From Methylorubrum extorquens (GTDB lineage Bacteria; Pseudomonadota; Alphaproteobacteria; Rhizobiales; Beijerinckiaceae): 32,000 nucleotides of DNA. Location of the stretch: assembly GCA_900234795.1 (NCBI GenBank), contig LT962688.1, forward strand, positions 900,001-932,000, read 5' to 3'. Below, piece by piece: positions 1,030 through 11,503 of this stretch; position 1 is the first letter of the stretch; each line of letters opens with the position of its first letter. Made by a program: the position numbers and the translations under genes. The notes below the pieces were generated by a model. It had not been told where the DNA came from and did no database searches. It saw nothing but the letters and a program-made list of their open reading frames with translations.

Positions 1030-2487
1030 ATGAGAGACTTTCCCTCTTTCGACGCGGAGCTTGATGACCTCGGGCCAGAGCCAGAAAGCCGCTGGCCAGG
1101 GTACGGCAACGATGAGCCGGAGCCCAAGCGCAAGCTGAAGCTCGACCACGATGGCGAGCCGCTGAACCAGGACTCAGCGGCGCAGGCGTTTGCCCAGCGC
1201 TACGCTGGGCGCCTGCTGTACTGCCACGACTCGGCCAAGTGGTACGAGTGGACGGGCGCCGCTTGGGAGCCCAACCGCTGCGGCATCGCTTTCCAGTGGT
1301 CTCGTGAGCTTATCCGTGAGCTGTTTGCTGAGAAGAGCGATAGGACGCGCTACATCGCCAGCAAGGTGGAGTTCGCAGGCGGAGTCGAGAAGTACTGCCG
1401 GCATGATCCAGCCCTCGCCGTCACTATCGAGGGCTGGGACGCCGATCCGTGGCTGTTGGGCACGCCCGGCGGCACAGTGGACCTGCGCACGGGCGACCTG
1501 CATCCGGCGGACCCTGCTGAGCGCATCACGAAGCTGACGGCGGTGGCGCCAGCCGAAGCGCCGAACTGCCCGAACTGGCTGCGCTTCCTTAACGACGTGA
1601 CACAGGGCGATGCCGGCTACATCCGGTTTCTGCAGCAATGGGCCGGCTACTGCCTGACCGGCGACACCAGCGAGCAGGCCCTGTGCTTCGCCTTTGGTGG
1701 CGGCGGCAACGGCAAGGGCGTGCTGATCCACGTGCTGGCCGGCATCCTGAAGGACTACGCTGTCAACGCCGCGATGGAGACCTTCACCGCGTCCAAGCAC
1801 GACCGCCACCCGACTGAGATTGCAGCCTTGCGCGGCGCACGGCTGGTGACGGCTTCGGAGACAGAGCAAGGCCGCCAGTGGGCAGAGGCCCGGATCAAGC
1901 AGCTGACCGGCGGCGACACCATGCGCGCCCGTTACATGCGGCAGGACGAGTTCGAGTTCACGCCCGTCCTGAAGCTGCTCATCATCGGCAACAACAAGCC
2001 CGGTCTGTCGAACGTGGATGACGCGGCGCGGCGCCGCTTCAACCTGCTGCCGTTCCTGTTCAAGCCTGCCGTGCCTGATCCCCGGCTCGAGGAGAAGCTG
2101 CGGGCAGAGTGGCCAGCCATCCTTCGCTGGATGATTGAGGGCTGCCTGGACTGGCAGACCAATCGTCTCGTTCGGCCCGATGTCGTGAAGGTGGCAACGG
2201 ACGAGTACTTCAGCGCGCAAGACACCTTCAGCCTGTGGCTGGAGGAGCGGTGCGTCGTCGATCGGACGAACCCCTACCGCAAAGCGACGACGCAGGAGTT
2301 GTTCGCATCCTGGAGTGAATATGCGCGGGCCAACAACGAGCCGCCCGGCACGCAGACCAGCTTCGGCGAACGCATGGAGAAGCTGGGATTCAAAAAGAAG
2401 GAGAAGGTAGCGACCGGCGTTGGCACTCGCGCCCGCGGCTATGAGGGTGTCGAGCTTCGACCACCATCCCAAGCGGCAGGCCAGTGA
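1030..2487 (+). CDS. phage/plasmid primase, P4 family (D5-like NTPase/helicase domain)
   Basis: ATG 1030 is preceded by GGGAGGAAGG; the ORF-track start at 1015 is a GTG overlapping the upstream stop. Walker A is FAFGGGGNGKGV (about 1693-1720). The layout is typical of P4 alpha/D5 family proteins (AFAQRYAGRLLYCHDSAKWYEWTG ... RFLQQWAGYCLTG ... RRRFNLLPF). Confidence 0.85.
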   Translation: MRDFPSFDAELDDLGPEPESRWPGYGNDEPEPKRKLKLDHDGEPLNQDSAAQAFAQRYAGRLLYCHDSAKWYEWTGAAWEPNRCGIAFQWSRELIRELFAEKSDRTRYIASKVEFAGGVEKYCRHDPALAVTIEGWDADPWLLGTPGGTVDLRTGDLHPADPAERITKLTAVAPAEAPNCPNWLRFLNDVTQGDAGYIRFLQQWAGYCLTGDTSEQALCFAFGGGGNGKGVLIHVLAGILKDYAVNAAMETFTASKHDRHPTEIAALRGARLVTASETEQGRQWAEARIKQLTGGDTMRARYMRQDEFEFTPVLKLLIIGNNKPGLSNVDDAARRRFNLLPFLFKPAVPDPRLEEKLRAEWPAILRWMIEGCLDWQTNRLVRPDVVKVATDEYFSAQDTFSLWLEERCVVDRTNPYRKATTQELFASWSEYARANNEPPGTQTSFGERMEKLGFKKKEKVATGVGTRARGYEGVELRPPSQAAGQ

Positions 2488-2606
2488 GGTGTCGCGGGTT
2501 GTCGCTAGTCCTCCGGTTACCTCACTTACGCACGCGCGCACGTGCAGTCAGTGCGGTGAACCAGCGACAACCCGCGACAGCCTCGGCCAAACCAATCGCC
2601 AATGGT

Positions 2607-2705
2607 AGAGGGAAAATTGATCATCTGGCGCAGCAGATCGGCGTCGGTGTTCTTTTCCATCAGCCCGCGCTAGGCCAGCTGACCCTGCTCGATGACCGGG
2701 AGGAC
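2607..2705 (-). pseudogene. IS256-family transposase N-terminal stub
   Basis: Minus strand reads ..VIEQGQLA*RGLMEKNTDADLLRQMINF.., which resembles the conserved IS256-family N-terminus (..L.EK..DADLLREMIGF..). It contains an internal stop and no downstream transposase body. Confidence 0.45.
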
Positions 2706-2712
2706 TGATGGT

Positions 2713-3603
2713 CTAGAATTCGGGGTTGGTTCGCACGGAGAATCGGTCGCGGGCAGTGAAGCGGTCTGCCGGTAGTTCGCCGCAGGAGCGTCGGTAGATG
2801 ATCTCGCTGAGATAGGAGCGCTCGATCTCGATCTGGTCTTCCTCGAGGTCGATGTACCAGCAGCGACGCGCGCCGCTCCAGCGGTAGCGGCGCGCCTTGA
2901 GCAGATCCTTGGTCTCGATCGGCGAGCCCTGCGCCCAGAGGCGCACGGTCGGCCGGCGGGCGGTTTCGAGGAGACATGACAGGGCTAGGCGCCCGGACGT
3001 CTTGAGCGGGCTGTCGAGCAGCCGGAGCAGGGCGTGGCAGTCGTCGATCGCCCGGTGGCCCTGGTGAAAGAACCCGTGGTCGATCAGCAAGTAGCCGAGC
3101 TTCATGCCCTCGTGGCCCTCGGCGCGCCACGGGATCTGGTGGCAGGAGCAGCCCCAGTTCTTCTCGGCAAACACCGGCCAGCGCGGCTCGCACATCTGCC
3201 GGTCGAAGCTGGCGTTATGGGCGATGACGACCGCAGCATCGGCCGCGATCCGGGCCACCGCCTCATCATCGATACGCTGACCGGCCACGTCGGCGTCGGT
3301 GATCCCGGTCAGCCGGGTGATCTCCGGGGGGATCGGCTTGCTGGGCTGGTGCAGTTGGTTGAACGTCTCGAGCACCCGGTAGATGCGCCCGCTGGAGCCA
3401 TATTCGAACTTGAGGATGCCAAGCTCGATCACCTCGTCCGTAGCGAAGTCGGTGCCAGTGGTTTCAACGTCGAGCACCAAGCCGATGAACGTCGGTTCGT
3501 TGGGCGGCTCGGGGCAGTCGGCCAGTGGCGCCAGCCGGCGCAGCACGCGGTAATCTCCCGTGCCTTCGAGCACGTTCGCGATGCTGTCGAGGGGCTGGTT
3601 CAC
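2713..3603 (-). CDS. DEDDh (DnaQ/epsilon-like) 3'-5' exonuclease with an extra C-terminal domain
   Basis: Exo motifs are present: I DVETTG, II AHNASFD, III HRAIDD. The C-terminal region of about 90 aa contains KDLLKARRYRWSGARRCWYIDL. The start is GTG at 3603. Confidence 0.85.
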   Translation of the reverse strand: MNQPLDSIANVLEGTGDYRVLRRLAPLADCPEPPNEPTFIGLVLDVETTGTDFATDEVIELGILKFEYGSSGRIYRVLETFNQLHQPSKPIPPEITRLTGITDADVAGQRIDDEAVARIAADAAVVIAHNASFDRQMCEPRWPVFAEKNWGCSCHQIPWRAEGHEGMKLGYLLIDHGFFHQGHRAIDDCHALLRLLDSPLKTSGRLALSCLLETARRPTVRLWAQGSPIETKDLLKARRYRWSGARRCWYIDLEEDQIEIERSYLSEIIYRRSCGELPADRFTARDRFSVRTNPEF

Positions 3604-3820
3604 GGCAACACGGTCCCGGCTTGGCTCTCCTTAGGCCGGCGGCGCCTCTGCCGTGCGGCTGTGCCGGTGAGCTTAACCGGTCCTGCAACAGGCTCACCAG
3701 CGGAATGCCTCGTCCGTCCACAGACATGAGGCCACCGACTGAACTGGCCGCTTACTGGCAACGGACCACGGACGCCATTGATTTCATCGCTGATGCGGAG
3801 AACATCAGGAAGTTCGGCCG

Positions 3821-4057
3821 ATGAACATGAGACCGCACTTCGCCGCCCTACGCAAAGAGGCCCGTCGTCTCCCGCCACAGGGTAACGCCCGAAACGTCGT
3901 TATAGACCGCATCACCCACCTCGAAGGCTGGCTTGAGGAGTTGGGTCGGCTGGACGTGGAGGAAGCACGGACGATCCGCCGCCATACCAGTCGGCTCGAC
4001 CATTACGGCGGGTGCAACAATCAACCTGAGGCGAAGGGTTGTGCCGATGACCAGTAG
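3821..4057 (+). CDS. hypothetical protein (78 aa)
   Basis: ORF only, with moderate third-position GC (about 70% by hand count). It is preceded by a 32-codon ORF (3726-3824) that overlaps it by ATGA. No family recognised. Confidence 0.3.
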   Translation: MNMRPHFAALRKEARRLPPQGNARNVVIDRITHLEGWLEELGRLDVEEARTIRRHTSRLDHYGGCNNQPEAKGCADDQ

Positions 4058-4108
4058 CGCCGCTGGCTTCGCGCTCAAGAACGCGGTGGCGCAGCTCCTG
4101 ACCATCTA

Positions 4109-4331
4109 CTAGGGTCTGTCGTCGCCTGAACGGATTGTCGGTGCTGGCGTTTTCTCGGTTTCAAATGAGGAGACGTGATGCTGTCAGACGCGCAGCGGGG
4201 TGAGTTGGAGCCGTTGATCGAGGCCTGTCGCCCAAAGGCCAAGACACGCTACGAGAAGACCGCCGTCAGCTTCGCCGGTGTCCTCTGCCTCGCCGCAACG
4301 CTCGATTGGCTCAAGTGACAACAGGCCCTAG
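4109..4331 (+). mobile_element. miniature IS5-family derivative (internally deleted IS, MITE-like)
   Basis: Terminal IRs are CTAGGGTCTGTCGTC 4109-4123 and GACAACAGGCCCTAG 4317-4331 (13/15 complementary). The internal 46-codon ORF 4178-4318 (MLSDAQRGELEPLIEACRPKAKT|RYEKTAVSFAGVLCLAATLDWLK) joins the N-terminus typical of IS5/IS4-type (DUF4096) transposases directly to their typical C-terminal tail. Confidence 0.6.
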
Positions 4332-4375
4332 GTCAGAACCCAATCAGCTTCACCGCGTGAACGGCTGCTTAGGGT

Positions 4376-4548
4376 CGAGGCTGTGTGAAAACGTCGAGGC
4401 CATAGAAGGATCTTCCCCTCGCACATCTGTGCAGCGCCGGCATGGCACCCCAACGGCAACTCGGCCGCCAACCATAATGCTCGCATGTCGGCAGCGCAGA
4501 AGATTGTTCTATAGTTTCGGCGCGCGCCTGAGTTTTCACACAGCCTCG
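4376..4548. repeat. MITE-like element bounded by a 17-bp perfect inverted repeat
   Basis: CGAGGCTGTGTGAAAAC 4376-4392 and GTTTTCACACAGCCTCG 4532-4548 enclose 139 bp with no credible ORF. Confidence 0.5.
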
Positions 4549-4743
4549 GTGGGTAGCAGACATTCACTCAAGATGCCGCAACTCGCTGCTCCTCCGCTGA
4601 CAGCAGACCTGTGCCGATCGAAATTCATGAGGCGACTTCTCGCCCGCCTTCTTCGAGGCAGCGTCCCGTTCGATCAAGTCTTTCTGACGTAATCTGGGTT
4701 AACTGTGCCGCTTGCGCCGATTGGCGTCGAAACAGGGGTGGCC

Positions 4744-5100
4744 ATGTCCTCTTCTGTCAAAGCAGGACTGCCCGGACCCGCAGTCCGGCCGGTGGGAACC
4801 GACAGCCCCACCGCGAACGGGAAGCCGCTCCCTGTTGCTCTGAGCCGTCCTGGGGTTGGTCCGGCGGTTTACGCCACCCTTATCGAACTCGGCGCAGATC
4901 CGGACGGCCTCCTTGCTGAGTTGGGGTTTAATCCCAGGCTCTTCGACGGCGGCAAGCTAGTCCCCTATGCCGCCCTCGGCCGCCTGATCACCCTCGAGGC
5001 CGAGCGGACGAATTGCCCTCACCTTGGGCTCCTCGTCGGCCAGCGCGCCACCCTGGCGTCGCTGGGGCCGATCAGCGTGTTGATGCGCCACTCGGACTAA
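4744..5100 (+). pseudogene. AraC-family transcriptional regulator, N-terminal fragment truncated by IS insertion
   Basis: ..VYATLIELGADPDGLLAELGFNPRLFDGGKLVPYAALGRLITLEAERTNCPHLGLLVGQRATLASLGPISVLMRHS resembles the AraC-type ligand-binding region. The reading frame runs into the IS3-type terminal repeat at 5098 and stops at 5098-5100. No HTH domain follows. Confidence 0.6.
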
Positions 5101-5147
5101 CCTGACCGGTATTTTGGACCGAGCCGAGTGAGCGACTGTCTTGCTGG

Positions 5148-6077
5148 TCAAGCGGGTTGCCATGGCGTTCCGTCTCTCAGGATGGCGTTGAGGATGGTGA
5201 TCAGCTTCCGAGCGGTGGCAATCAGGGCAACGAGCTTGGGCTTACCGGCTGCGATGAGCCGGTCGCGGAAGGTTTTCAGCGCGGCATTGTGACGGCTGGC
5301 CACCATGGCCCCCATGAACAGCGCCGTGCGAACAGGTGCGCGGCCGCCTGCAATGAAGCTCCTCCCTCGCCACTGACCGGATTGCCGCGTCCAAGGGGCC
5401 AAGCCGACCAGCGCGGCGACTTGCTTCCGGTTGAGGCTTCCAAGCTCAGGCAGCTCCGCGATCAGGGTTCGTGCGATCGTCGGTCCAACACCAGGAACGG
5501 AGGTCAGGAGGGTCTCCTTCCTGCGCCATTCAAGCGACCGGTCTACCTCTGCATCGATCGAGCGGTCGATCACACTCTGCTCCTGCTCCAACGCCTCTAT
5601 GACGCGCCGGACGCTGTCTCGAATGCACGGTGGAGCTTGGCTCGCTCGCTGCCGCTCGGACGCGATCAGTCCTACGATCTGACGGCGTCTTGTGACGAGA
5701 TCAGCCAAGGCCTGAGTCTCGGCATCGGCCCGAGCGCGAACGGGTGGGTTGGTGGCCGCCGCGAACCGGGCGATCACGGTGGCGTCGATGCGGTCGGTCT
5801 TGGCGCGTTGGCCCAAGGCGTGAGCGAAAGCACGGACCTGTGCTGGGTTCACGATCACGGCTGGTAGCCTCCAGGTGGTGAGAGCACGTGCCACCATGGC
5901 TTCCAAACCGCCGGTTGCCTCCAGGACGACGAGCTTCGGCTTCAGGGGCCGGAGGCGTTCGCACAGCTGCTCCACACCCTCTGTCGTACGGTCAACGGCG
6001 AAGTTCGCTCCAGAGGGATGAACGTGAATATCGAGGCGGTCTCGGGCGACATCGATCCCGACAACAGGAGCGTCCAT
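5148..6077 (-). CDS. IS110-family transposase (DEDD recombinase)
   Basis: MDAPVVGIDVARDRLDIHV.. is the DEDD_Tnp_IS110 N-terminus. ..LLTSVPGVGPTIARTLIAELPELG.. is the Transposase_20 motif. I prefer ATG 6077 (AAGGA Shine-Dalgarno) to the ORF-track start at 6251, whose extra 58 residues are low-complexity. Confidence 0.85.
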   Translation of the reverse strand: MDAPVVGIDVARDRLDIHVHPSGANFAVDRTTEGVEQLCERLRPLKPKLVVLEATGGLEAMVARALTTWRLPAVIVNPAQVRAFAHALGQRAKTDRIDATVIARFAAATNPPVRARADAETQALADLVTRRRQIVGLIASERQRASQAPPCIRDSVRRVIEALEQEQSVIDRSIDAEVDRSLEWRRKETLLTSVPGVGPTIARTLIAELPELGSLNRKQVAALVGLAPWTRQSGQWRGRSFIAGGRAPVRTALFMGAMVASRHNAALKTFRDRLIAAGKPKLVALIATARKLITILNAILRDGTPWQPA

Positions 6078-6257
6078 CTGATCCCATCCTTGCGCAAGCG
6101 GGCTTCGCGTTGAGCGGCCCAAGCGACTGTTCGGGTTCGATGGAACGGCGGGCGAGGACCCTGGCTCACTTGCGGGCTTGGTGGCCCCAGAGGCTAACGG
6201 TCTCTCACCCGCCACCGCGCCGAAGAGCATACCCGGCGAAGGTGGGATCAAGTTACA
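6078..6257 (-). ncRNA. candidate bridge RNA in the IS110 left end
   Basis: About 180 nt, non-coding, 5' of the recombinase, as in IS621-type elements. It contains three segments matching the element junctions (6189-6196, 6165-6170, 6122-6130; see finding). Confidence 0.4.
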
Positions 6258-6263
6258 AGAGGC

Positions 6264-6572
6264 TACTGCATGGCCGCTGCCATGGGTAGCCGGAAGGCCA
6301 GATCAGGGAAGCTGACAGGCGCGGGCGGCCGGTAGCCCAGGGACGAGTGCGGCCGGACGCGGTTGTAGGTGTTCTGCCACAGGGCGATCACGGCTGGGCT
6401 TCCTTGAGCGAGTAGAAGATCTCTTGGCGCAGGCACTCGTCGCGCAGCTCTGCTCGGAGATCTCCGCCTCCTTGCAGGCCAGGGCCAAACTCTTGCCCTG
6501 GGCGGTCTGCACCTCGATCTGGCGCAGCTTCAGCACCACCTGCTCCGCGCTCGTCTTCTGACCTCGCCGCAT
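6264..6572 (-). pseudogene. IS3-family transposase remnant (OrfA N-terminus fused to OrfB C-terminus, multiple frames)
   Basis: MRRGQKTSAEQVVLKLRQIEVQTAQGKSLALACKEAEISEQS is the OrfA HTH. In other frames come ..EIFYSLKEAQ.. and ..VIALWQNTYNRVRPHSSLGYRPPAPVSFPDLAFRLPMAAAMQ* (OrfB C-terminus, stop at 6263-6265). Confidence 0.65.
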
Positions 6573-6638
6573 GTCCGACTCCTTCAGTCCTGGCTGATCC
6601 TCTCAATCAGCCCGGTCCAAAGCCAGCCGGTCAGGTCA

Positions 6639-7086
6639 GTGCTCGACGCCTTCAGCCGCCGGATCGTCGGCTGGGTCATGGCCAGCCACCTGCGCTCGGA
6701 GTTGGTGCTCGACGCTCTGGAGATAGCCGTCACCCAGCGCAGGCCGCGCGACGTCATCCACCACTCCGACCAGAGCTCGCAATACACGTCGCTGGCCTTC
6801 GGCAACCGGTGCCGAGAGGCCGGTGTCCGGCCCTCGACGGGCTCGGTCGGCGATGCCTACGACAACGCCATGGCCGAGAGCTTCTTCTCCACCCCCGAAT
6901 GCGATCTGCTCGTGCGTCGCCGCTTCCGCTCGCAGGCGGAGGCACGGATGGCCTGCTTCAGCTACATCGAAGGCTTCTACAACCCGCCGCGCCGCCACGG
7001 CGCTCGGTTACCGCTCGCCCGTCATTTACGAGCAGGAGACTGCCTCAGAGGCGTCAACAATGAAACTGCTCAGCCAAGTCCCCTGA
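6639..7086 (+). pseudogene. second IS3-family OrfB (rve integrase core) fragment, 5'-truncated and frameshifted
   Basis: VLDAFSRRIVGWVMASHLRSELVLDALEIAVTQRRPRDVIHHSDQSSQYTSLAFGNRCREAGVRPSTGSVGDAYDNAMAESFF.. is the rve core. The C-terminus ..ALGYRSPVIYEQE.. lies in another frame. A probable element end, ..CCGGGGTCAGGCGA, is at 7142-7155. The fragment starts exactly where the first IS3 remnant ends (6638/6639). Confidence 0.65.
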
Positions 7087-7195
7087 CCGTCCACAAAAAC
7101 GGGGCAATCCCAGCTTGTTAACGCATACCGCTTAGCTTCGGCCGGGGTCAGGCGAGGTTCCCGTGATGAGGGACTGACCCGGTGAGGTCTAGTGT

Positions 7196-10100
7196 ATGTA
7201 CTCGTTGCACCCGAACGAGGTGGAGCGCCTGAAGGTGCTGCACGATCTGGAGGTGTTCGGCTCCCCTCCTGAGCCGCAGTACGACGCGATCTGCCGGACC
7301 ACTCAGGCGCTGTTCGGTGTACCTATCGCGCTTGCGTCGTTGGTTGGCGAGACCGAGCAGCGCTTCAAGGGCAGGTGCGGCCTGGAGGCGAGCAGAACTC
7401 CACGCGAGGTCTCGTTCTGCACCCACACCATCCTCTCGGACGAGGTGCTCGTTGTCGAGGATGCCGCTCAGGATGAGCGGTTTTCTGCCAACCCGCTCGT
7501 CACAGGTGAGCCGCACATCCGCTTCTATGCTGGCGCACCGCTCGTCCTCAGTCCTGGCATCCATCTCGGCTCCCTGTGCATCATCGACCGCACCCCGCGC
7601 TCCTTCTCGCCTGAGCAACAGGAGCAGCTTCGCGATCTGGCTCAAACCGTTGTCTCTCAGCTTCGCCTGAGCAAGGCTGAGCAAGCAGCCCGGGCTGGAG
7701 AGGCCTGCCTGCGCGAAAGCGAGGCCAACTATCGCCTCCTCGCGGACAACAGCACCGACCTCATCGTGCGGTGCACTCCAGACGGCACGCGCCTCTACGT
7801 TTCGCCGGCTGCGAAGCGCCTTCTCGGCTACGAACCGGAGGAGCTTGTCGGCACCAAATCCCTCGACTTCGTGCACCCAGAAGATGTGGCCGACTTCGGC
7901 CTGGTGCTGAGCGCAGTGGGTCGAGGCTGTTCCGAGCGAGCCGTCAGCCAGCAGCGTTACCGGCACAAGAACGGCTCTTGGCTGTGGGTGGAGACGTCCT
8001 TCAGCGTCACACGTGATGCGGCAGGCGCTGCGTCCGGCTTCGTCGCTGTGGTGCGCGACATCTCCGAACGGAAGAAGGTTGAGCACGCGATGGCGCATAT
8101 GGCGCGCCACGACCCACTCACCGGCCTGCCGAACCGCCTGCACCTTCGCGAACAGCTTGAGCAGGAGATCGCGCGCACGAAGCGCAAGGGCAGTGGCTTT
8201 GCCCTGTTCTGCCTGGATCTCGATCGCTTCAAACTCGTCAACGACACGCTTGGGCACCAAGCCGGGGACACCTTGCTGAAGGTCGTGGCGCAGCGGATCA
8301 GGGCTCTTCTGCGCACCGAGGACACGGTTGCGCGGCTTGGTGGCGACGAGTTCGTGATCATCCAGACTGGGTGCGCTGGACCTGCGGACGCAACACGGCT
8401 GGCCGAGCGTCTGATCGAGGCGATGGTCTTGCCCATCGATCTCGATGGCTACCCGGCCGGGGTGGGGCTCAGCATCGGCCTCGCCCTCTGCCCACGTGAT
8501 GCAGTCGATGCTGATAAGCTGATTGGTCTGGCGGATCAGGCGCTCTACCGAGCGAAGGCCAGCGGGCGGAACACCTTCCGTTCCCATGCAGAAGGTGAAG
8601 CCACGTCGCGCAGGAACGATCCTGAGCAGTCCGGTGTCTTCCGGAGCCGCGACATCGATCCCATTGGTTCGCACCCCAAGCTCTTTGACGAGGTGCTGTC
8701 CGGCTTGTTGGAGGGCAGCCTGGATTGCGTAAAGCTCCTCGATGAGCACGGCCGGCTGCTGTTCATGAGTTCGGGTGGTCAGAGGCTGATGGAAGTCGAG
8801 AACGCTGGATCGATCCTCGGTCAGTGCTGGCTCGACTTCTGGGAAGGCGAGCACCACGACGTGGCGCAGCAGGCGCTTGAGACAGCCAAGGCCGGTGAGC
8901 CCGCCCGCTTCCGAGGCTTCTGCCCCACGGCCAAGGGACAGCCACGGTGGTGGGACGTGAGCCTGAGCCCCATGCAGGGGCTGAGCGGCTCGCCGCAGCG
9001 CATCCTGTCTGTGTCCCGCGATGCGACCGCACAGGTCGAGCTTGAGGCGAGGCTCAGGACGACAGCCCAGCGCTACGAGGCGCTGATCGAGGCAAGCGCG
9101 ACCATGGTCTGGCGGGCAGAGCCAGACGGCTCTCTCATCGATAGCAGCGGGTGGGAAGCCTACACGGGTCAGCCGGTGAGCGCCTACGCTGGCTTCGGCT
9201 GGCTGAGCACCGTTCACCCCGATGACCAGGAGCGCGTGACCGCCACATGGCGCGAGATCTTCGCCTCGCAGGCAGCAGGCTCCTTCGAGTTCCGTGCCCT
9301 CTGCCGAGACGGATCGTACCGATGGACGCTGACCAGGGCTGTGCCGCTCACGGACGGCTCCGGTCAGGTACGGGAGTGGGTCGGAACCGACAGCGACATC
9401 CACGAGAGCAAACAGGCAACCGAGGCAATTCGCCTTCAGGAAGAACGCTACCGGCTGGCGATGCTCGCCACACAGGATGCGATCTGGGATCACGACCTCA
9501 CATCGGACGCCATCGAGTGGAGCGAGGGAACTTACCGGCTGTTTGGCTACTCTGACGCTGAGGTTGCCAACACGGGCGCTTGGTGGAAGAGCAAGATCCA
9601 CCCTGATGATCGAGCGCGCGTTACGGCCTCCCTTCGTTGCGTCATCGACGGCCATGAGCACCGCTGGAGCGAGGAGTACCTCTTTGAGCAGGGCGACGGC
9701 ACTTACGCGGACGTGCTCGACCGAGGTTTTGTAATCCGGGACTCACACGGTCGAGCCGTGCGCGTGGTCGGTGCTATGCACGATGTCACCGAGGAGCGGC
9801 GAGCGGATGCAGCGCTGCGGGCCAGTGAAGAGCGCCTGCGGCTTGCCTTGCGAGCGGGCCGGATGGTCGCTTGGGAACTCAACCTCAAGACGGGCCAGAG
9901 CAAACAATCTGGAGATGCCTTGGACCTTCTAGGCATTGCCTCAGGGCCGGCGTCAGAGTTCTACGACCGCGTTCATCCCGATGACCGCGCAGGGATGGAC
10001 CGCTTCATTCAAGGAGCGGAGAGCCACCAGGGCCAAGAATTCCGTTACGTCCACCCGGCAGGCAGCACGTTATGGCTGAGCGCGTGGGCTGAGCGGACCG

Positions 10101-11503
10101 AGGGGGACCGGCTCGTCGGCATCACCTTCGACATCACCGAACGCAAGCGCGTTGAAGAACGAGCATGGCGCGCAGCCAATCACGACGCGCTCACGGGTTT
10201 GCCGAACCGCCGGCTGTTCCACCAGCGACTGGAGCAGGCGCTGACTGCCGCAGAGCGGGGCGGTACGAGTGTGAGCCTGCTTCTCTTAGACCTCGACAAC
10301 CTGCGGGACGTGAACGACACGCTCGGGCACGACGCAGGTGACGCTGTACTGGTAGAGGTTGCCCAGCGCTTGCAGGACGGCTTGCGTGAGACCGACACAG
10401 TGGCGCGCCTAAGTGGTGACGAGTTCGCCTTACTGCTCGTTGAGCCGCTGCGCCTAGAGCACGCATTGAGCCACACACGAGGGCTCATAGAGCGGCTGAG
10501 CCAGCCGTTCTGCAACCGTGGCCACACGCTCTCGCGCAAGGCGAGCATCGGTGTTGCTGCCTATCCCGATCACCACCGCGGCCCGCACGACCTGCTGAAA
10601 GACGCTGACATCGCGCTCTATCGCGCAAAGGTGCAGGGCCGGAACCGCGCCATTGTTTTCGCGCCAGAGATGCGGGCAGAGACCGAGCGGCGGGTGAGCA
10701 TCGCGAGCGAGGTTCGGGTGGCTCTCGCTGCGGGGCGGATCGTGCCCTACTACCAGCCGAAGGTGTGCTTCTCAACCGGCGCAATCGTCGGCTTTGAGGC
10801 ACTGGCACGCTGGGAGCATCCTGAGAAGGGATTGCTCACCCCCGGCTACTTCGGCTCGGCCTTCGACGATCCGGAGCTTGCCACAGGCATCGGCGACAGC
10901 ATCCTCCGGCAGGTTGCGGCGGACCTGCGGGAGTGGCGGGAACGTGGCCTTACTCCCGGCCTCATTGCGGTGAACTTCGCCTCGGCGGAGTTCCGCAAGC
11001 CGGATTTGGCCGGCAGCATCCTGTCCGTGCTGAACGAGCACGGCGTTCCACCGAGCCTGTTCGAGGTCGAGGTCACCGAGACCGTCTTCCTCGGCCACGG
11101 CAGCGAGAACGTGCCAGCGACCCTTCACCGGCTACGCGCTGCCGGCGTTCTGATCACGCTCGATGACTTCGGCACCGGCTTCGCATCGCTGACGCACCTG
11201 AAGCAGTTCCCGGTCGGCCACCTGAAGGTGGACCAGAGCTTCGTGCGCAACATGGAGCAGGACAGCGACGACGCGGCCATTGTCGCGGCGGTCGTCGGCC
11301 TTGGCCGCAGCATTGGCGTGAAGGTCACGGCTGAAGGTGTCGAGACTGAGGGTCAGGCACAGCGACTCAGCGCTATGGGCTGCGACTACGCCCAGGGCTA
11401 CCGCTACGCCACGCCCATGGCCGGCTCACGCGTGCCCTGGTTCCTGACGCATTGGAGGACGGCTGCGGTGGTCGAGGAGAGCCAGATGCTGCGCCTTGCA
11501 TGA
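7196..11503 (+). CDS. multidomain c-di-GMP signalling protein: GAF-PAS-GGDEF-PAS(x4)-GGDEF-EAL
   Basis: N-terminal GAF domain (..FCTHTILSDEVLVVEDAAQDERFSANPLV..FYAGAPL..). First GGDEF is RTEDTVARLGGDEF (about 8336-8353), with an RxxD I-site. Several PAS/PAC units follow. Second GGDEF is degenerate, RETDTVARLSGDEF (10412-10426). EAL motifs are EALARW (10796-), DDFGTGFAS, KVDQSF and EGVET. Confidence 0.9.
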   Translation: MYSLHPNEVERLKVLHDLEVFGSPPEPQYDAICRTTQALFGVPIALASLVGETEQRFKGRCGLEASRTPREVSFCTHTILSDEVLVVEDAAQDERFSANPLVTGEPHIRFYAGAPLVLSPGIHLGSLCIIDRTPRSFSPEQQEQLRDLAQTVVSQLRLSKAEQAARAGEACLRESEANYRLLADNSTDLIVRCTPDGTRLYVSPAAKRLLGYEPEELVGTKSLDFVHPEDVADFGLVLSAVGRGCSERAVSQQRYRHKNGSWLWVETSFSVTRDAAGAASGFVAVVRDISERKKVEHAMAHMARHDPLTGLPNRLHLREQLEQEIARTKRKGSGFALFCLDLDRFKLVNDTLGHQAGDTLLKVVAQRIRALLRTEDTVARLGGDEFVIIQTGCAGPADATRLAERLIEAMVLPIDLDGYPAGVGLSIGLALCPRDAVDADKLIGLADQALYRAKASGRNTFRSHAEGEATSRRNDPEQSGVFRSRDIDPIGSHPKLFDEVLSGLLEGSLDCVKLLDEHGRLLFMSSGGQRLMEVENAGSILGQCWLDFWEGEHHDVAQQALETAKAGEPARFRGFCPTAKGQPRWWDVSLSPMQGLSGSPQRILSVSRDATAQVELEARLRTTAQRYEALIEASATMVWRAEPDGSLIDSSGWEAYTGQPVSAYAGFGWLSTVHPDDQERVTATWREIFASQAAGSFEFRALCRDGSYRWTLTRAVPLTDGSGQVREWVGTDSDIHESKQATEAIRLQEERYRLAMLATQDAIWDHDLTSDAIEWSEGTYRLFGYSDAEVANTGAWWKSKIHPDDRARVTASLRCVIDGHEHRWSEEYLFEQGDGTYADVLDRGFVIRDSHGRAVRVVGAMHDVTEERRADAALRASEERLRLALRAGRMVAWELNLKTGQSKQSGDALDLLGIASGPASEFYDRVHPDDRAGMDRFIQGAESHQGQEFRYVHPAGSTLWLSAWAERTEGDRLVGITFDITERKRVEERAWRAANHDALTGLPNRRLFHQRLEQALTAAERGGTSVSLLLLDLDNLRDVNDTLGHDAGDAVLVEVAQRLQDGLRETDTVARLSGDEFALLLVEPLRLEHALSHTRGLIERLSQPFCNRGHTLSRKASIGVAAYPDHHRGPHDLLKDADIALYRAKVQGRNRAIVFAPEMRAETERRVSIASEVRVALAAGRIVPYYQPKVCFSTGAIVGFEALARWEHPEKGLLTPGYFGSAFDDPELATGIGDSILRQVAADLREWRERGLTPGLIAVNFASAEFRKPDLAGSILSVLNEHGVPPSLFEVEVTETVFLGHGSENVPATLHRLRAAGVLITLDDFGTGFASLTHLKQFPVGHLKVDQSFVRNMEQDSDDAAIVAAVVGLGRSIGVKVTAEGVETEGQAQRLSAMGCDYAQGYRYATPMAGSRVPWFLTHWRTAAVVEESQMLRLA

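What the first reader, a model, noticed from the sequence alone, without database searches (positions are those of the whole stretch)
5098..6265. IS110-family element inserted inside the terminal IR of an IS3 remnant, with bridge-RNA-like guide matches sharing a CT core
(1) 5098-5132 and the reverse complement of 6602-6638 form an IS3-type IR pair (28/37 identical). The IS110-family element therefore lies within an IS3 remnant, about 35 nt from the IS3 tip and just after the OrfB stop (6263-6265). (2) The non-coding left end of about 180 nt (6078-6257, minus strand) contains three junction matches. On the plus strand, AGAGGCTA 6189-6196 equals 6258-6265, the flank just outside the predicted left end. 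CTCACT 6165-6170 is the reverse complement of AGTGAG 5127-5132, the flank just outside the right end. AGCGACTGT 6122-6130 equals 5131-5139, the last bases of the right end. (3) In element orientation these read, in 5'-to-3' order, TAGCCTCT (left target plus CT), AGTGAG (antisense of CT plus right target) and ACAGTCGCT (right-end donor plus CT). This matches the order and sense/antisense logic reported for the IS621 bridge RNA, which also uses a CT core. A GGGC/GCCC hairpin lies between the first two segments. (4) Removing 5133-6257 plus one CT extends the IS3 IR similarity across the scar (..GAGTGAGAGG.. against ..GATTGAGAGG..).
Basis: partly seen in the sequence, partly recalled or inferred. 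Interest (0 to 1): 0.7.

Follow-up and report, generated by a model that had tools for sequence, protein, structure and literature searches.

The report
ISMex17 bridge-RNA element inside a MITE

Summary

- **Element.** Window 5133-6257 (minus strand) is ISMex17. Its 309-aa recombinase is 100% identical to the ISfinder reference. It has the DEDD and Ser domains, and it matches IS621 at E = 1e-32.
- **Chance.** All three junction matches are exact at the stated coordinates. Shuffles produced them in 0.13%, 3.1% and 0.05% of cases, and never all three together (0 of 100,000).
- **RNA structure.** The 180-nt left end folds like an IS621-type bridge RNA: a 5' stem-loop, then a target loop and a donor loop. 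The stem that closes the target loop has compensatory changes at 9 of 14 pairs across 55 relatives.
- **Guide covariation.** Across relatives, the target-loop segments co-vary with their own flanks. The right side matches 4.8 of 5 variable positions, against 2.8-2.95 when flanks are permuted (0 of 5000 permutations reached this).
- **Target.** The target TAGCCT-CT-CACTCGG lies about 35 nt inside the right terminal repeat of the IS3-family element ISMdi3. It is unoccupied and exact in 13 metagenome contigs. It is occupied at the same position in five other Methylorubrum records.
- **Host element.** The "IS3 remnant" is a 414-bp internal-deletion derivative with both terminal repeats, matching the MITE MiniMdi3.
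- **Prior knowledge.** Durrant et al. 2024 already list ISMex17 with a bridge RNA predicted in its left end.

The parts
5133..6257 (-). ISMex17 (IS110 family, IS110 group), 1125 bp between the two CT core copies
   Evidence: 97-98% DNA identity to copies in the M. extorquens AM1 megaplasmid and M. populi pMPPM05, the latter annotated 'IS110-like element ISMex17 family transposase'. Boundaries fixed by comparison with empty sites.
5148..6077 (-). Recombinase CDS, 309 aa, ATG at 6077-6075, TGA stop at 5150-5148
   Evidence: PF01548 (E = 1.1e-18) plus PF02371 (E = 1.4e-17). Matches IS621 transposase 8wt6 at E = 1.2e-32, with D9/E53/D95/D98/S233 aligned to the IS621 motifs GID, EATG, KTDxxDA and SG. 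100% identical to the ISfinder ISMex17 protein printed in PMC11187229, supplement file 6.
6078..6257 (-). Left non-coding end, the predicted bridge RNA (180 nt)
   Evidence: Covariance model R1, built from 52 relatives without this copy, hits 6075-6257 minus strand full length, 186 bits, E = 5e-53, and is the only hit in the window. MFE z-score -2.9. Proposed structure is 87.4% paired across 55 relatives against 81.3% in shuffles, with 17 pairs showing compensatory change.
6214..6242 (-). 5' stem-loop (6232-6242 pairs with 6214-6224)
   Evidence: Helix 1: 6 of 11 pairs have changes on both sides, 67.7% of cells paired. Support is moderate because the alignment is loose in this region.
6147..6213 (-). 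Target-binding stem-loop. Closing helix 6199-6213 / 6147-6160, inner hairpin 6184-6187 / 6174-6177, with the internal loop between them.
   Evidence: Helix 2: 9 of 14 pairs compensatory, 94.8% paired. Helix 3: G-C to U-A or A-U in 11 sequences. The loop sequences are the least conserved part of the RNA, as published for the first loop of IS110 ncRNAs.
6189..6196 (-). Left target guide, UAGCCUCU (same sense as left target TAGCCT plus core CT)
   Evidence: Exact 8-mer match to flank 6258-6265. Seen in 126 of 100,000 shuffles. The equivalent segment in relatives tracks their own left flanks: 4.9 of 7 against 4.0 permuted, 0 of 5000.
6165..6171 (-). Right target guide, AAGUGAG (antisense to core CT + CACT; 6 of 7 to CTCACTC)
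   Evidence: Exact 6-mer. In relatives a 7-nt antisense match (CT + 5) to their own right flank is almost universal: 4.78 of 5 variable positions against 2.8-2.95 permuted, 0 of 5000.
6083..6144 (-). Donor-binding stem-loop. Closing helix 6139-6144 / 6083-6088, inner helix 6114-6120 / 6100-6108.
   Evidence: Helices 4 and 5 are 99.6% and 96.2% paired but almost invariant, so covariation says nothing either way. High conservation matches the published 'second loop is much more conserved'.
6122..6130 (-). Left donor guide, ACAGUCGCU (same sense as the right-end terminus ACAGTCG plus core CT)
   Evidence: Exact 9-mer match to 5131-5139. Seen in 51 of 100,000 shuffles. Both ACAGTCGC in the left end and ...AAGACAGTCG at the right-end tip are conserved in relatives.
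6089..6097 (-). Candidate right donor guide, UUG-CG-CAAG. CAAG is antisense to core CT + TG of the left-end tip; UUG could pair with TAA using one G·T.
   Evidence: CAAG and the left-end tip (C)TTGTAA are invariant in 55 relatives. The pattern resembles the discontiguous 9-on-7 pairing described for IS621. No covariation test is possible, so this is inferred.
5133..5147 (-). Right non-coding end (15 nt), ending ...AAGACAGTCG
   Evidence: The right end is much shorter than the left end, as in the IS110 group and unlike IS1111.
5146..5151 (-). TTGACC, candidate -35 of the promoter formed when the right and left ends are joined in the circle. 17 nt downstream across the junction lies TAACTT (6250-6255).
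   Evidence: GCTTGAC at a fixed distance from the right-end tip reaches at least 80% consensus across the 55 distinct right ends compared. The -10 is weak (3 of 6). No sigma-70-like site exists in the integrated context. Inferred by analogy with IS621.
6258..6259 (-). Core CT, left junction copy
   Evidence: A single CT is present at empty sites.
5131..5132 (-). Core CT, right junction copy
6258..6638 (-). Host element, left and central part: ISMdi3-derived MITE (MiniMdi3-like). Left IR tip at 6638, OrfA start, internal deletion, OrfB tail and TAG stop (6265-6263).
   Evidence: 6448-6638 matches the first 191 bp (96.9%) and 6259-6438 the region 1032-1212 (90.7%) of a 1246-bp intact IS3 element in L001. 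About 840 bp are missing. ISMdi3 is 1246 bp (IS3 family) and MiniMdi3 is 382-416 bp (PMC2680597, Table S4). rve_3 hit on the OrfB tail.
5098..5130 (-). Host element, right IR outer part (tip at 5098; the tip reads TAACCTG here, TGACCTG elsewhere)
   Evidence: 5100-5130 is 100% identical to the last 31 bp of the L001 element. IR comparison.

Best explanation
Window 5133-6257 (minus strand) is an intact copy of ISMex17, an IS110-group insertion sequence.

Its DEDD/Ser recombinase is proposed to work with a roughly 180-nt bridge RNA transcribed from the left non-coding end. The RNA has a 5' stem-loop and two stem-loops with internal loops.

- **Target loop.** It holds UAGCCUCU, which has the same sense as left target plus CT and so pairs with the bottom strand. 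It also holds AAGUGAG, which is antisense to CT plus right target and so pairs with the top strand.
- **Donor loop.** It holds ACAGUCGCU, which has the same sense as the right-end terminus plus CT. It also holds CAAG (perhaps with UUG), antisense to CT plus the left-end terminus.
- **Recombination.** The excised circle joins the right end to the left end through one CT. The RNA bridges that junction to the target TAGCCT-CT-CACTCGG, and recombination at the CT inserts the element without any further duplication.
- **Target site.** The target lies about 35 nt inside the right terminal inverted repeat of the IS3-family element ISMdi3 and its MITE derivative MiniMdi3, beginning at the OrfB stop codon. 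That is why this copy, and the others found, sit in that repeat in one orientation.

Shown here: the identity of the element, its boundaries, the guide matches, structural covariation, guide-flank covariation in relatives, and the existence of empty targets. Inferred from homology to IS621: transcription of the RNA, its binding to the recombinase, and catalysis.
For: - **Protein.** PF01548 plus PF02371. Homology to the IS621 transposase (8wt6, E = 1.2e-32) with the catalytic D, E, D, D and S positions aligned and invariant among relatives. 100% identity to the ISfinder ISMex17 protein.
- **Guides.** Exact 8-, 6- and 9-mer junction matches in the published order and sense. They never co-occurred in 100,000 shuffles.
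- **Structure.** The target-loop closing helix has compensatory changes at 9 of 14 pairs. The whole structure beats all 500 shuffles and all slid registers. The first loop is variable and the second conserved, as published.
- **Covariation with flanks.** Among 59 distinct relative/flank sets, the right guide matches 4.78 of 5 against 2.82 permuted, and the left guide 4.88 of 7 against 4.04. Both were reached by 0 of 5000 permutations. The result holds with 46 distinct guide pairs.
- **Family RNA model.** A model built without this copy gives 186 bits at exactly 6075-6257 on the minus strand.
- **Target.** 13 exact empty sites in IS3 right ends, each with different outer flanks. Five further copies show the same junction bases. 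For the three read to the repeat tip (L004, L005, L006), the DNA beyond the tip also differs.
- **Literature.** ISMex17 is listed with a predicted bridge RNA in the left end (PMC11208160 supplement).
Against: - There are no expression or activity data for ISMex17. The RNA's 5' and 3' ends are unknown.
- The single-sequence minimum-free-energy fold pairs the extreme 5' part with the 3' part instead of forming the 5' stem-loop and donor stem.
- RNAalifold recovered only the target stem cleanly.
- The donor-loop helices and the right donor guide are invariant, so they have no covariation support.
- The junction -10 is weak (TAACTT, 3 of 6). By my own count the junction scores 8 of 12, below the scanner's threshold of 9; the tool cannot scan the joined ends.
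- The right target guide has a mismatch at its 7th position against the actual target.
- Left-guide covariation is diluted by C-rich targets and register shifts.
Confidence: 0.9

Rival explanations
1. The internal copies of the junction sequences act as DNA, not RNA. They would be sub-terminal repeats or binding sites that the recombinase reads on double-stranded DNA, or leftovers of past recombination between ends and target. No guide RNA would be involved.
For: The matches alone do not say which molecule is read. No transcript is shown. No promoter-like site exists in the integrated context.
Against: The matching segments sit exactly in internal loops bounded by helices with many compensatory base changes, which is a signature of selection on RNA. 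One segment is same-sense and the other antisense, as needed to pair with staggered strands. The recombinase is a clear homologue of IS621, for which RNA guidance was shown experimentally and structurally (PMC11208160, PMC11208158).
Confidence: 0.04
2. The junction matches are coincidences in G+C-rich DNA, and the element simply landed in an IS3 end by chance.
For: The 6-mer alone appears in 3% of shuffles. The targets of relatives are C-rich and of low complexity.
Against: All three matches together appeared in 0 of 100,000 shuffles. Flank permutations never reached the observed guide-flank agreement. The same junction bases recur in five further copies.
Confidence: 0.01
3. The architecture is right, but this particular copy is an immobile relic. 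It would be trapped in a rearranged IS nest, with a bridge RNA that is not expressed because the junction promoter exists only in the circle.
For: No sigma-70-like promoter is found upstream in the integrated state. The host MITE has no direct repeats and abuts another IS fragment, so the locus has been rearranged.
Against: The ORF is intact and identical to the reference. Both ends, both cores and all guide segments are intact. ISMex17 has 7 copies in strain DM4, which argues for recent activity. Read-through from the co-oriented IS3 OrfA/B remnant could supply transcription (inference).
Confidence: 0.05

Closest known systems
IS621 and its bridge RNA (E. coli; Durrant et al. 2024, PMC11208160; Hiraizumi et al. 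2024, PMC11208158)
   Same: Both have a DEDD RuvC-like domain plus a Ser domain in the recombinase (E = 1e-32 to 8wt6) and a long left end encoding a roughly 180-nt RNA. That RNA has a 5' stem-loop, a variable target loop and a conserved donor loop. The 5' guides are same-sense (8-9 nt) and the 3' guides antisense (4-7 nt). Both use a CT core included in the pairings and insert without a scar. Both have a short right end, and here that end carries a conserved -35-like box.
   Different: The alignment over residues 5-307 is clear but distant, and the guide sequences differ. The right target guide is 7 nt in this clade. The target is the terminal repeat of another transposable element, whereas Durrant et al. 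cite REP elements as typical IS110 targets. There is no experimental evidence for ISMex17.
ISMex17 as catalogued (ISfinder; Vuilleumier et al. 2009, PMC2680597; listed in supplements of PMC11208160 and PMC11187229)
   Same: The transposase is identical (309 of 309 aa). The family assignment is IS110. The bridge RNA is predicted in the left end. The size is about 1.13 kb.
   Different: The catalogued length is 1132 bp, against 1125 bp (1127 with one CT) measured here between cores, so the boundary definition differs. The papers I could search do not spell out its guide segments or its target in the ISMdi3/MiniMdi3 repeat.
[quoted passage not shown]
   Same: Both are DEDD-recombinase insertion sequences that insert site- and orientation-specifically inside the terminal inverted repeat of another transposon, with an RNA from their non-coding region choosing the site.
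   Different: Those elements belong to the IS1111 group: the RNA is encoded downstream of the gene, they have long sub-terminal inverted repeats, and the order of strand-matching segments is reversed. ISMex17 belongs to the IS110 group, and its target is an IS3-family IS or MITE.
REP-targeting IS110 elements (ISPpu9, ISPpu10, ISPa11)
   Same: They follow the same strategy of targeting a multi-copy, presumably neutral repeat. Most 60-67% relatives of ISMex17 found here sit at CCCCT|CTCTCCCC...GGGGA hairpin-like sites.
   Different: The ISMex17 lineage carries different target-loop guides, directed at a mobile-element end instead of an extragenic palindrome.

Membership tests
IS110 family, IS110 group (bridge-RNA recombinase elements) | [quoted passage not shown] | tested here: met
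   309 aa. PF01548 E = 1.1e-18 and PF02371 E = 1.4e-17, both above curated cut-offs. D9, E53, D95, D98 and S233 align with the IS621 catalytic motifs and are invariant in 10 relatives.
IS110 family, IS110 group (bridge-RNA recombinase elements) | Long left non-coding end upstream of the gene, short right end, no long terminal or sub-terminal inverted repeats | tested here: met
   Left end 180 nt, right end 15 nt. The termini TGTAACTTG... and ...AAGACAGTCG show no inverted-repeat relation (read directly).
IS110 family, IS110 group (bridge-RNA recombinase elements) | [quoted passage not shown] | tested here: met
   Five helices, 87.4% paired, 17 pairs with compensatory change. The observed values exceeded all 500 shuffles and all slid registers. 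Target-loop columns are variable and donor-loop columns nearly invariant. The donor helices themselves carry no covariation.
IS110 family, IS110 group (bridge-RNA recombinase elements) | Target loop: 5' side same-sense to left target plus core (8-9 nt), 3' side antisense to core plus right target (4-7 nt), co-varying with the flanks across relatives | tested here: met
   8-nt and 6-nt exact matches. Permutation tests on 59 and 46 relatives gave 0 of 5000 for both sides.
IS110 family, IS110 group (bridge-RNA recombinase elements) | Donor loop: 5' side same-sense to right-end terminus plus core; 3' side antisense to core plus left-end terminus | tested here: inconclusive
   The left donor guide is a 9-nt exact match. 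The right donor guide is only CAAG (4 nt), plus a possible discontiguous UUG. Both partners are invariant in relatives, so no covariation test is possible.
IS110 family, IS110 group (bridge-RNA recombinase elements) | Core dinucleotide at both junctions, single at the empty site; no other duplication | tested here: met
   CT at 6258-6259 and at 5131-5132. Empty sites carry a single CT: TAGCCT-CT-CACTCGG.
IS110 family, IS110 group (bridge-RNA recombinase elements) | Sigma-70 promoter reconstituted across the RE-LE junction of the circular form | tested here: inconclusive
   TTGAC is conserved in the right end at a fixed distance from the tip. 17 nt downstream across the junction lies TAACTT, which matches only 3 of 6. 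The scanner cannot be run on the joined sequence.
IS110 family, IS110 group (bridge-RNA recombinase elements) | RNA is expressed, binds the recombinase and is required for recombination | not testable with these tools
   Needs RNA-seq, binding assays and transposition assays.
IS1111 group | Guide RNA encoded in a long right end downstream of the gene; sub-terminal inverted repeats of 7-17 bp | tested here: not met
   The right end is 15 nt. The structured RNA is upstream of the gene.
Rfam RF02234 sX15 | Score at or above the family's gathering threshold on the transcribed strand | tested here: not met
   31.6 bits against a gathering score of 55, and on the plus strand, antisense to the left-end RNA. 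This Rfam 15 search of 4800-6900 returned no bridge-RNA-named family at E up to 10.
IS3 family / MiniMdi3 MITE (host element) | Imperfect terminal inverted repeats (about 40 bp) starting TG; OrfA/OrfB with an rve integrase core; the MITE form keeps both repeats but lacks the transposase | tested here: met
   IR pair with 28 matches over 35/37 nt. rve_3 hit on the OrfB tail. 191 bp plus about 215 bp match the two ends of a 1246-bp intact relative, with about 840 bp deleted. The sizes fit ISMdi3 (1246 bp) and MiniMdi3 (382-416 bp) in PMC2680597 Table S4. The name assignment rests on size and host only, because no reference sequence was available.

The most novel reading that the evidence does not exclude
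The ISMex17 lineage may be a natural retargeting of an IS110 bridge RNA. Its relatives use REP-like hairpin targets, whereas ISMex17 targets the inner terminal repeat of another mobile element (ISMdi3 and its MITE MiniMdi3).

ISMex17 always inserts co-oriented, starting at the OrfB stop codon. In that position it could be transcribed by read-through from the IS3 promoter, because the integrated copy has no promoter of its own. It could also ride on, or disable, its host transposon. That would make it a parasite of a parasite, whose supply of landing sites is multiplied by the host's own transposition.
Probability: 0.3. Interest if true: 0.4.

Novelty: already known. Interest (0 to 1): 0.2.

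Why it matters
This is a clean, fully worked natural example of bridge-RNA logic. Every part can be read from sequence: all four guide positions, the core, the empty site, the occupied sites and relatives with different guides. It shows that reading the sequence alone can recover the guide code.

The practical gain is annotation. The window's 5098-6638 block is ISMex17 nested in a MiniMdi3-type MITE.

The only mildly new point is the target. An IS110-group element is programmed against the terminal repeat of an IS3-family element or MITE. That parallels IS4321/IS5075 in Tn21-family repeats, and it gives a natural set of near-cognate unoccupied sites (CC core, CAAT variant) that could inform specificity rules.

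Tried and rejected
- **Rfam 15, permissive mode, over 4800-6900.** No bridge-RNA family was found. The only notable hit was a sub-threshold sX15 match on the opposite strand. I rejected it as an identification and kept it as a side note.
- **Single-sequence MFE fold.** It pairs the 5' tip of the left end with the 3' end and hides the 5' stem-loop and donor stem. I did not use it as the structure.
- **RNAalifold on 55 sequences.** It recovered the target stem but added an implausible GCGGU/GGGCC long-range helix. I replaced it with a hand-built structure and tested that with pair counts.
- **First guide-flank table in a fixed register.** It under-counted left-guide matches because the loop length shifts by ±1 in the alignment. 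I redid it with a register-tolerant score applied equally to permuted pairs.
- **First shuffle script.** It timed out. I rewrote it with a proper Euler shuffle.
- **Promoter scan of the integrated locus.** It found nothing. The tool cannot scan the joined RE-LE junction.
- **Other copies in the window.** I searched the 32-kb window for further copies of ISMex17 or the IS3 element and found none.
- **A donor-loop closing pair A(6141)-U(6086).** I considered this pair and dropped it. The 3' partner varies freely among relatives while the A stays fixed.
Full report
**1. The observation**

- AGAGGCTA at 6189-6196 equals 6258-6265.
- CTCACT at 6165-6170 is the reverse complement of 5127-5132.
- AGCGACTGT at 6122-6130 equals 5131-5139.

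Read on the minus strand, which is the element's orientation, the junctions are:
- left: ...GCCATGCAGTAGCCT-CT|TGTAACTTGATCC...
- right: ...GCTTGACCAGCAAGACAGTCG-CT|CACTCGGCTCGGTCCAAAATACCGGTCAGGTTA

The 180-nt non-coding left end then contains, in 5'-to-3' order:
- TAGCCTCT at position 62
- AGTGAG at position 88
- ACAGTCGCT at position 128

In 100,000 dinucleotide-preserving shuffles of that left end, the three words occurred in 126, 3,073 and 51 shuffles. At least two occurred together in 11 shuffles, and all three in none.

The IS3-type inverted-repeat pair is also real. It has 28 matches between 5098-5132 and the reverse complement of 6602-6638, with a 2-nt indel. The similarity continues (AGG) once the element and one CT are removed.

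**2. What the element is**

The minus-strand ORF 6077-5148 encodes 309 aa with PF01548 (DEDD_Tnp_IS110) and PF02371 (Transposase_20).
- It matches the IS621 transposase, whose structure with bridge RNA is solved (8wt6), at E = 1.2e-32.
- D9, E53, D95, D98 and S233 align with the IS621 catalytic motifs. These positions are invariant among ten relatives.
- The DNA is 97-98% identical to copies in the Methylorubrum extorquens AM1 megaplasmid and M. populi pMPPM05. The pMPPM05 gene is annotated "IS110-like element ISMex17 family transposase".
- The protein is 100% identical to the ISfinder ISMex17 sequence printed in the supplement of Siddiquee et al. 2024.
- ISMex17 was described in the M. extorquens AM1/DM4 genome paper as IS110 family, 1132 bp, with 7 copies in DM4.

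**3. Boundaries and target**

A megablast of the region showed three plasmid records that match only the 43 nt left of the element. Reading them gives uninterrupted IS3 right ends:
- ...CAGTAGCCTCCCACTCGGCTCGGTCCAAAATACCGGTCAGGTCA (L001, L003)
- ...CAGTAGCCTCTCAATCGGCTCGG... (L002)

An exact-pattern scan of metagenome contigs for GTAGCCTCTCACTCGGCTCGG found 13 contigs. Each has the IS3 OrfB tail upstream and the repeat tip ...GGTCAGGTCA downstream, followed by different DNA in each contig. Deleting 5133-6257 plus one CT from the window therefore restores a sequence that exists in nature.

ISMex17 shows the same junction bases in L004 (AM1), L005 (M. populi P-1M), L006 (CM4), L007 (M. aminovorans) and L008 (M. 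zatmanii). In L004, L005 and L006, which were read to the repeat tip, the DNA beyond the tip also differs, so these are independent insertions. The target is TAGCCT-CT-CACTCGG. Its TAG is the OrfB stop codon, and it lies about 35 nt from the IS3 tip.

**4. The host element**

An intact relative in L001 is 1246 bp long.
- Window 6448-6638 matches its first 191 bp (96.9%).
- Window 6259-6438 together with 5100-5130 matches its last 215 bp or so.
- About 840 bp of OrfA/OrfB are missing.

Without ISMex17 the window copy is 414 bp and has both terminal repeats. Table S4 of Vuilleumier et al. 2009 lists ISMdi3 (IS3 family, 1246 bp) and a MITE derived from it, MiniMdi3 (382-416 bp; 8 copies in DM4, 4 in AM1). 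The "IS3 remnant" is therefore best described as a MiniMdi3-type MITE. That name rests on size and host only, because I had no reference sequence.

**5. Is the left end a bridge RNA?**

The published rules come from Durrant et al. 2024.
- The RNA has a 5' stem-loop and then two stem-loops with internal loops.
- The first loop is variable and binds the target. The second is conserved and binds the donor.
- The 3' side pairs with the top strand, so it is antisense to core plus right part (4-7 nt).
- The right donor guide pairs discontiguously.

I collected 80 loci encoding relatives at 60-99% amino-acid identity and aligned 55 distinct left ends. A hand-built structure was tested by pair counting.

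| Helix | Role | Window coordinates | Support across 55 relatives |
|---|---|---|---|
| 1 | 5' stem-loop | 6232-6242 / 6214-6224 | 6 of 11 pairs compensatory, 67.7% paired |
| 2 | closes target loop | 6199-6213 / 6147-6160 | 9 of 14 pairs compensatory, 94.8% paired |
| 3 | inner target hairpin | 6184-6187 / 6174-6177 | one pair G-C to U-A or A-U in 11 sequences |
| 4 | closes donor loop | 6139-6144 / 6083-6088 | 99.6% paired, invariant |
| 5 | inner donor helix | 6114-6120 / 6100-6108 | 96.2% paired, invariant |

The whole structure exceeded all 500 shuffles on every measure and every slid register.

- TAGCCTCT lies between helices 2 and 3, on the 5' side.
- AGTGAG lies between helices 3 and 2, on the 3' side.
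- ACAGTCGCT lies between helices 4 and 5, on the 5' side.

The remaining 3' side of the donor loop contains CAAG (6089-6092), complementary to CT+TG of the left junction. It is preceded by UUG, which could pair with TAA. I take this as the right donor guide, but both partners are invariant, so it cannot be tested by covariation.

A covariance model built from 52 relatives, leaving out the window and its two near-identical copies, finds one hit in the 32-kb window. That hit is 6075-6257 on the minus strand, full length, 186 bits, E = 5e-53.

**6. Guide-flank covariation**

For each relative I took the left flank (up to the conserved CT|TGTAAC), the right flank (after ...ACAGTCG) and the loop segments aligned to the window's guides.

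The 3' segment is the reverse complement of the first 7 nt of the relative's own right flank in almost every case. Examples:

| Guide segment | Own right flank |
|---|---|
| GGGUGAG | CTCACCC |
| GGGAGAG | CTCTCCC |
| GACAGAG | CTCTGTC |
| GUGGAAG | CTTCCAC |
| CCUCAG | CTGAGG |
| GGCUAAG | CTTAGCC |

Over 59 distinct sets the mean match at the five variable positions is 4.78, against 2.82 ± 0.14 for permuted flanks. No permutation out of 5000 reached the observed value.

The 5' segment matches 4.88 of 7 left-flank positions, against 4.04 ± 0.10 permuted (0 of 5000). Restricting the test to 46 distinct guide pairs gives the same result.

The core is CT in all relatives but one. In the window the right guide AAGUGAG matches 6 of its 7 positions.

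**7. Other features**

- **Junction promoter.** The right end is only 15 nt and carries TTGACC (5146-5151) overlapping the stop codon. GCTTGAC at that distance from the tip reaches at least 80% consensus across the 55 distinct right ends compared. In a circle it would lie 17 nt from TAACTT (6250-6255), giving a plausible but weak junction promoter.
- **Integrated context.** The integrated locus has no sigma-70-like site.
- **Conservation of the left end.** Left-end DNA is conserved in Martelella, Shinella, Sinorhizobium and Bosea plasmids at 81-90%, while the coding sequence no longer matches by megablast. This fits selection on the RNA.

**8. Comparison and novelty**

The element works like IS621, and it meets every testable defining feature of the IS110-group bridge-RNA systems. 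The right donor guide and the junction promoter remain inconclusive, and expression and activity cannot be tested here. It is not an IS1111-group element, because the RNA lies upstream of the gene and the right end is only 15 nt.

Durrant et al. 2024 already list ISMex17 with a bridge RNA predicted in the left end. The kind, the mechanism and this member are therefore known.

I did not find two details written down in the papers I could search: the explicit guide assignment, and the target in the ISMdi3/MiniMdi3 repeat. The closest parallel for that target choice is IS4321/IS5075 in Tn21-family repeats. Most relatives found here sit at CCCCT|CTCTCCCC...GGGGA hairpin-like sites, so the ISMex17 lineage looks naturally retargeted.

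**9. Verdict**

The finding is an ordinary, already catalogued IS110-family element with a textbook bridge-RNA layout, nested in a MITE. Interest is low (0.2). The only open idea is that targeting a mobile repeat gives read-through expression or hitch-hiking. That idea is untested.

Noticed in passing
window 6067-6226 (+): Rfam RF02234 (Xanthomonas sRNA sX15) gives a full-length but sub-threshold hit (31.6 bits against 55) on the strand antisense to the ISMex17 left-end RNA. The sX15 paper says sX15 and asX7 are complementary, plasmid-borne, and have 10 homologues in the S. maltophilia K279a chromosome. The sX15/asX7 locus may therefore itself be the left end of an IS110-type element.
   Followed up: partly
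window 6639-7121 (+): A second IS3-family transposase fragment (rve hit starting at profile position 29, then rve_3) begins directly at the tip of the MITE's left repeat. The MITE has no direct repeats (GAC at 5095-5097 against GTG at 6639-6641), so the locus is a rearranged IS nest.
   Followed up: partly
window 4705-5100 (+): An AraC-type regulator N-terminal fragment (PF12625 positions 1-69 of 185) is cut off by the MITE tip. The tip reads TAACCTG here but TGACCTG in every other copy, and this point change supplies the ORF's TAA stop.
   Followed up: partly
L001 2030-2076, L003 and L002 near 2030-2075: Unoccupied ISMdi3-like right ends in plasmids differ from the cognate target by one base: the CT core is CC (L001, L003), or CACT is CAAT (L002). 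These are natural near-cognate sites that could show whether the core or the right-target positions limit insertion.
   Followed up: no
L007 about 2445-2470 (M. aminovorans): The right flank of this ISMex17 copy (CTCAATCAGCCCGGTC) is the left-repeat type of the IS3 element, not the right-repeat type, while its left flank is the usual OrfB tail. This suggests either recombination between copies or a host-element variant.
   Followed up: no
L006 (M. extorquens CM4 pCMU01) 1202-4627: This ISMex17 copy is broken by IS256-family insertions. The left end is truncated near position 30 and the gene is interrupted. The original right junction still lies in the same IS3 repeat, with CACCCGG as right target.
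   Followed up: partly
L010-L086 flanks: Most 60-67% relatives of ISMex17 are inserted at C-rich sites of the form ...CCCCT|CTCTCCCC(N3-6)GGGGA, which look like REP-type hairpins. Several MAGs carry 3-5 copies with the same right target but variable left targets.
   Followed up: partly
alignment A2 columns 141 and 168-173 (window 6122 and 6093-6098): The last base of the left donor guide (U, C or G) and the segment upstream of CAAG (CUUGCG against AUUAGG) change together between sub-clades, although the CT core and the left-end tip stay constant. The reason is unknown.
   Followed up: no
window 7196-11503 (+): A 1435-aa ORF with two GGDEF-like motifs (RLGGDEF, RLSGDEF) and an EAL-like segment lies next to the IS nest. 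It was read from the translation only and not analysed.
   Followed up: no
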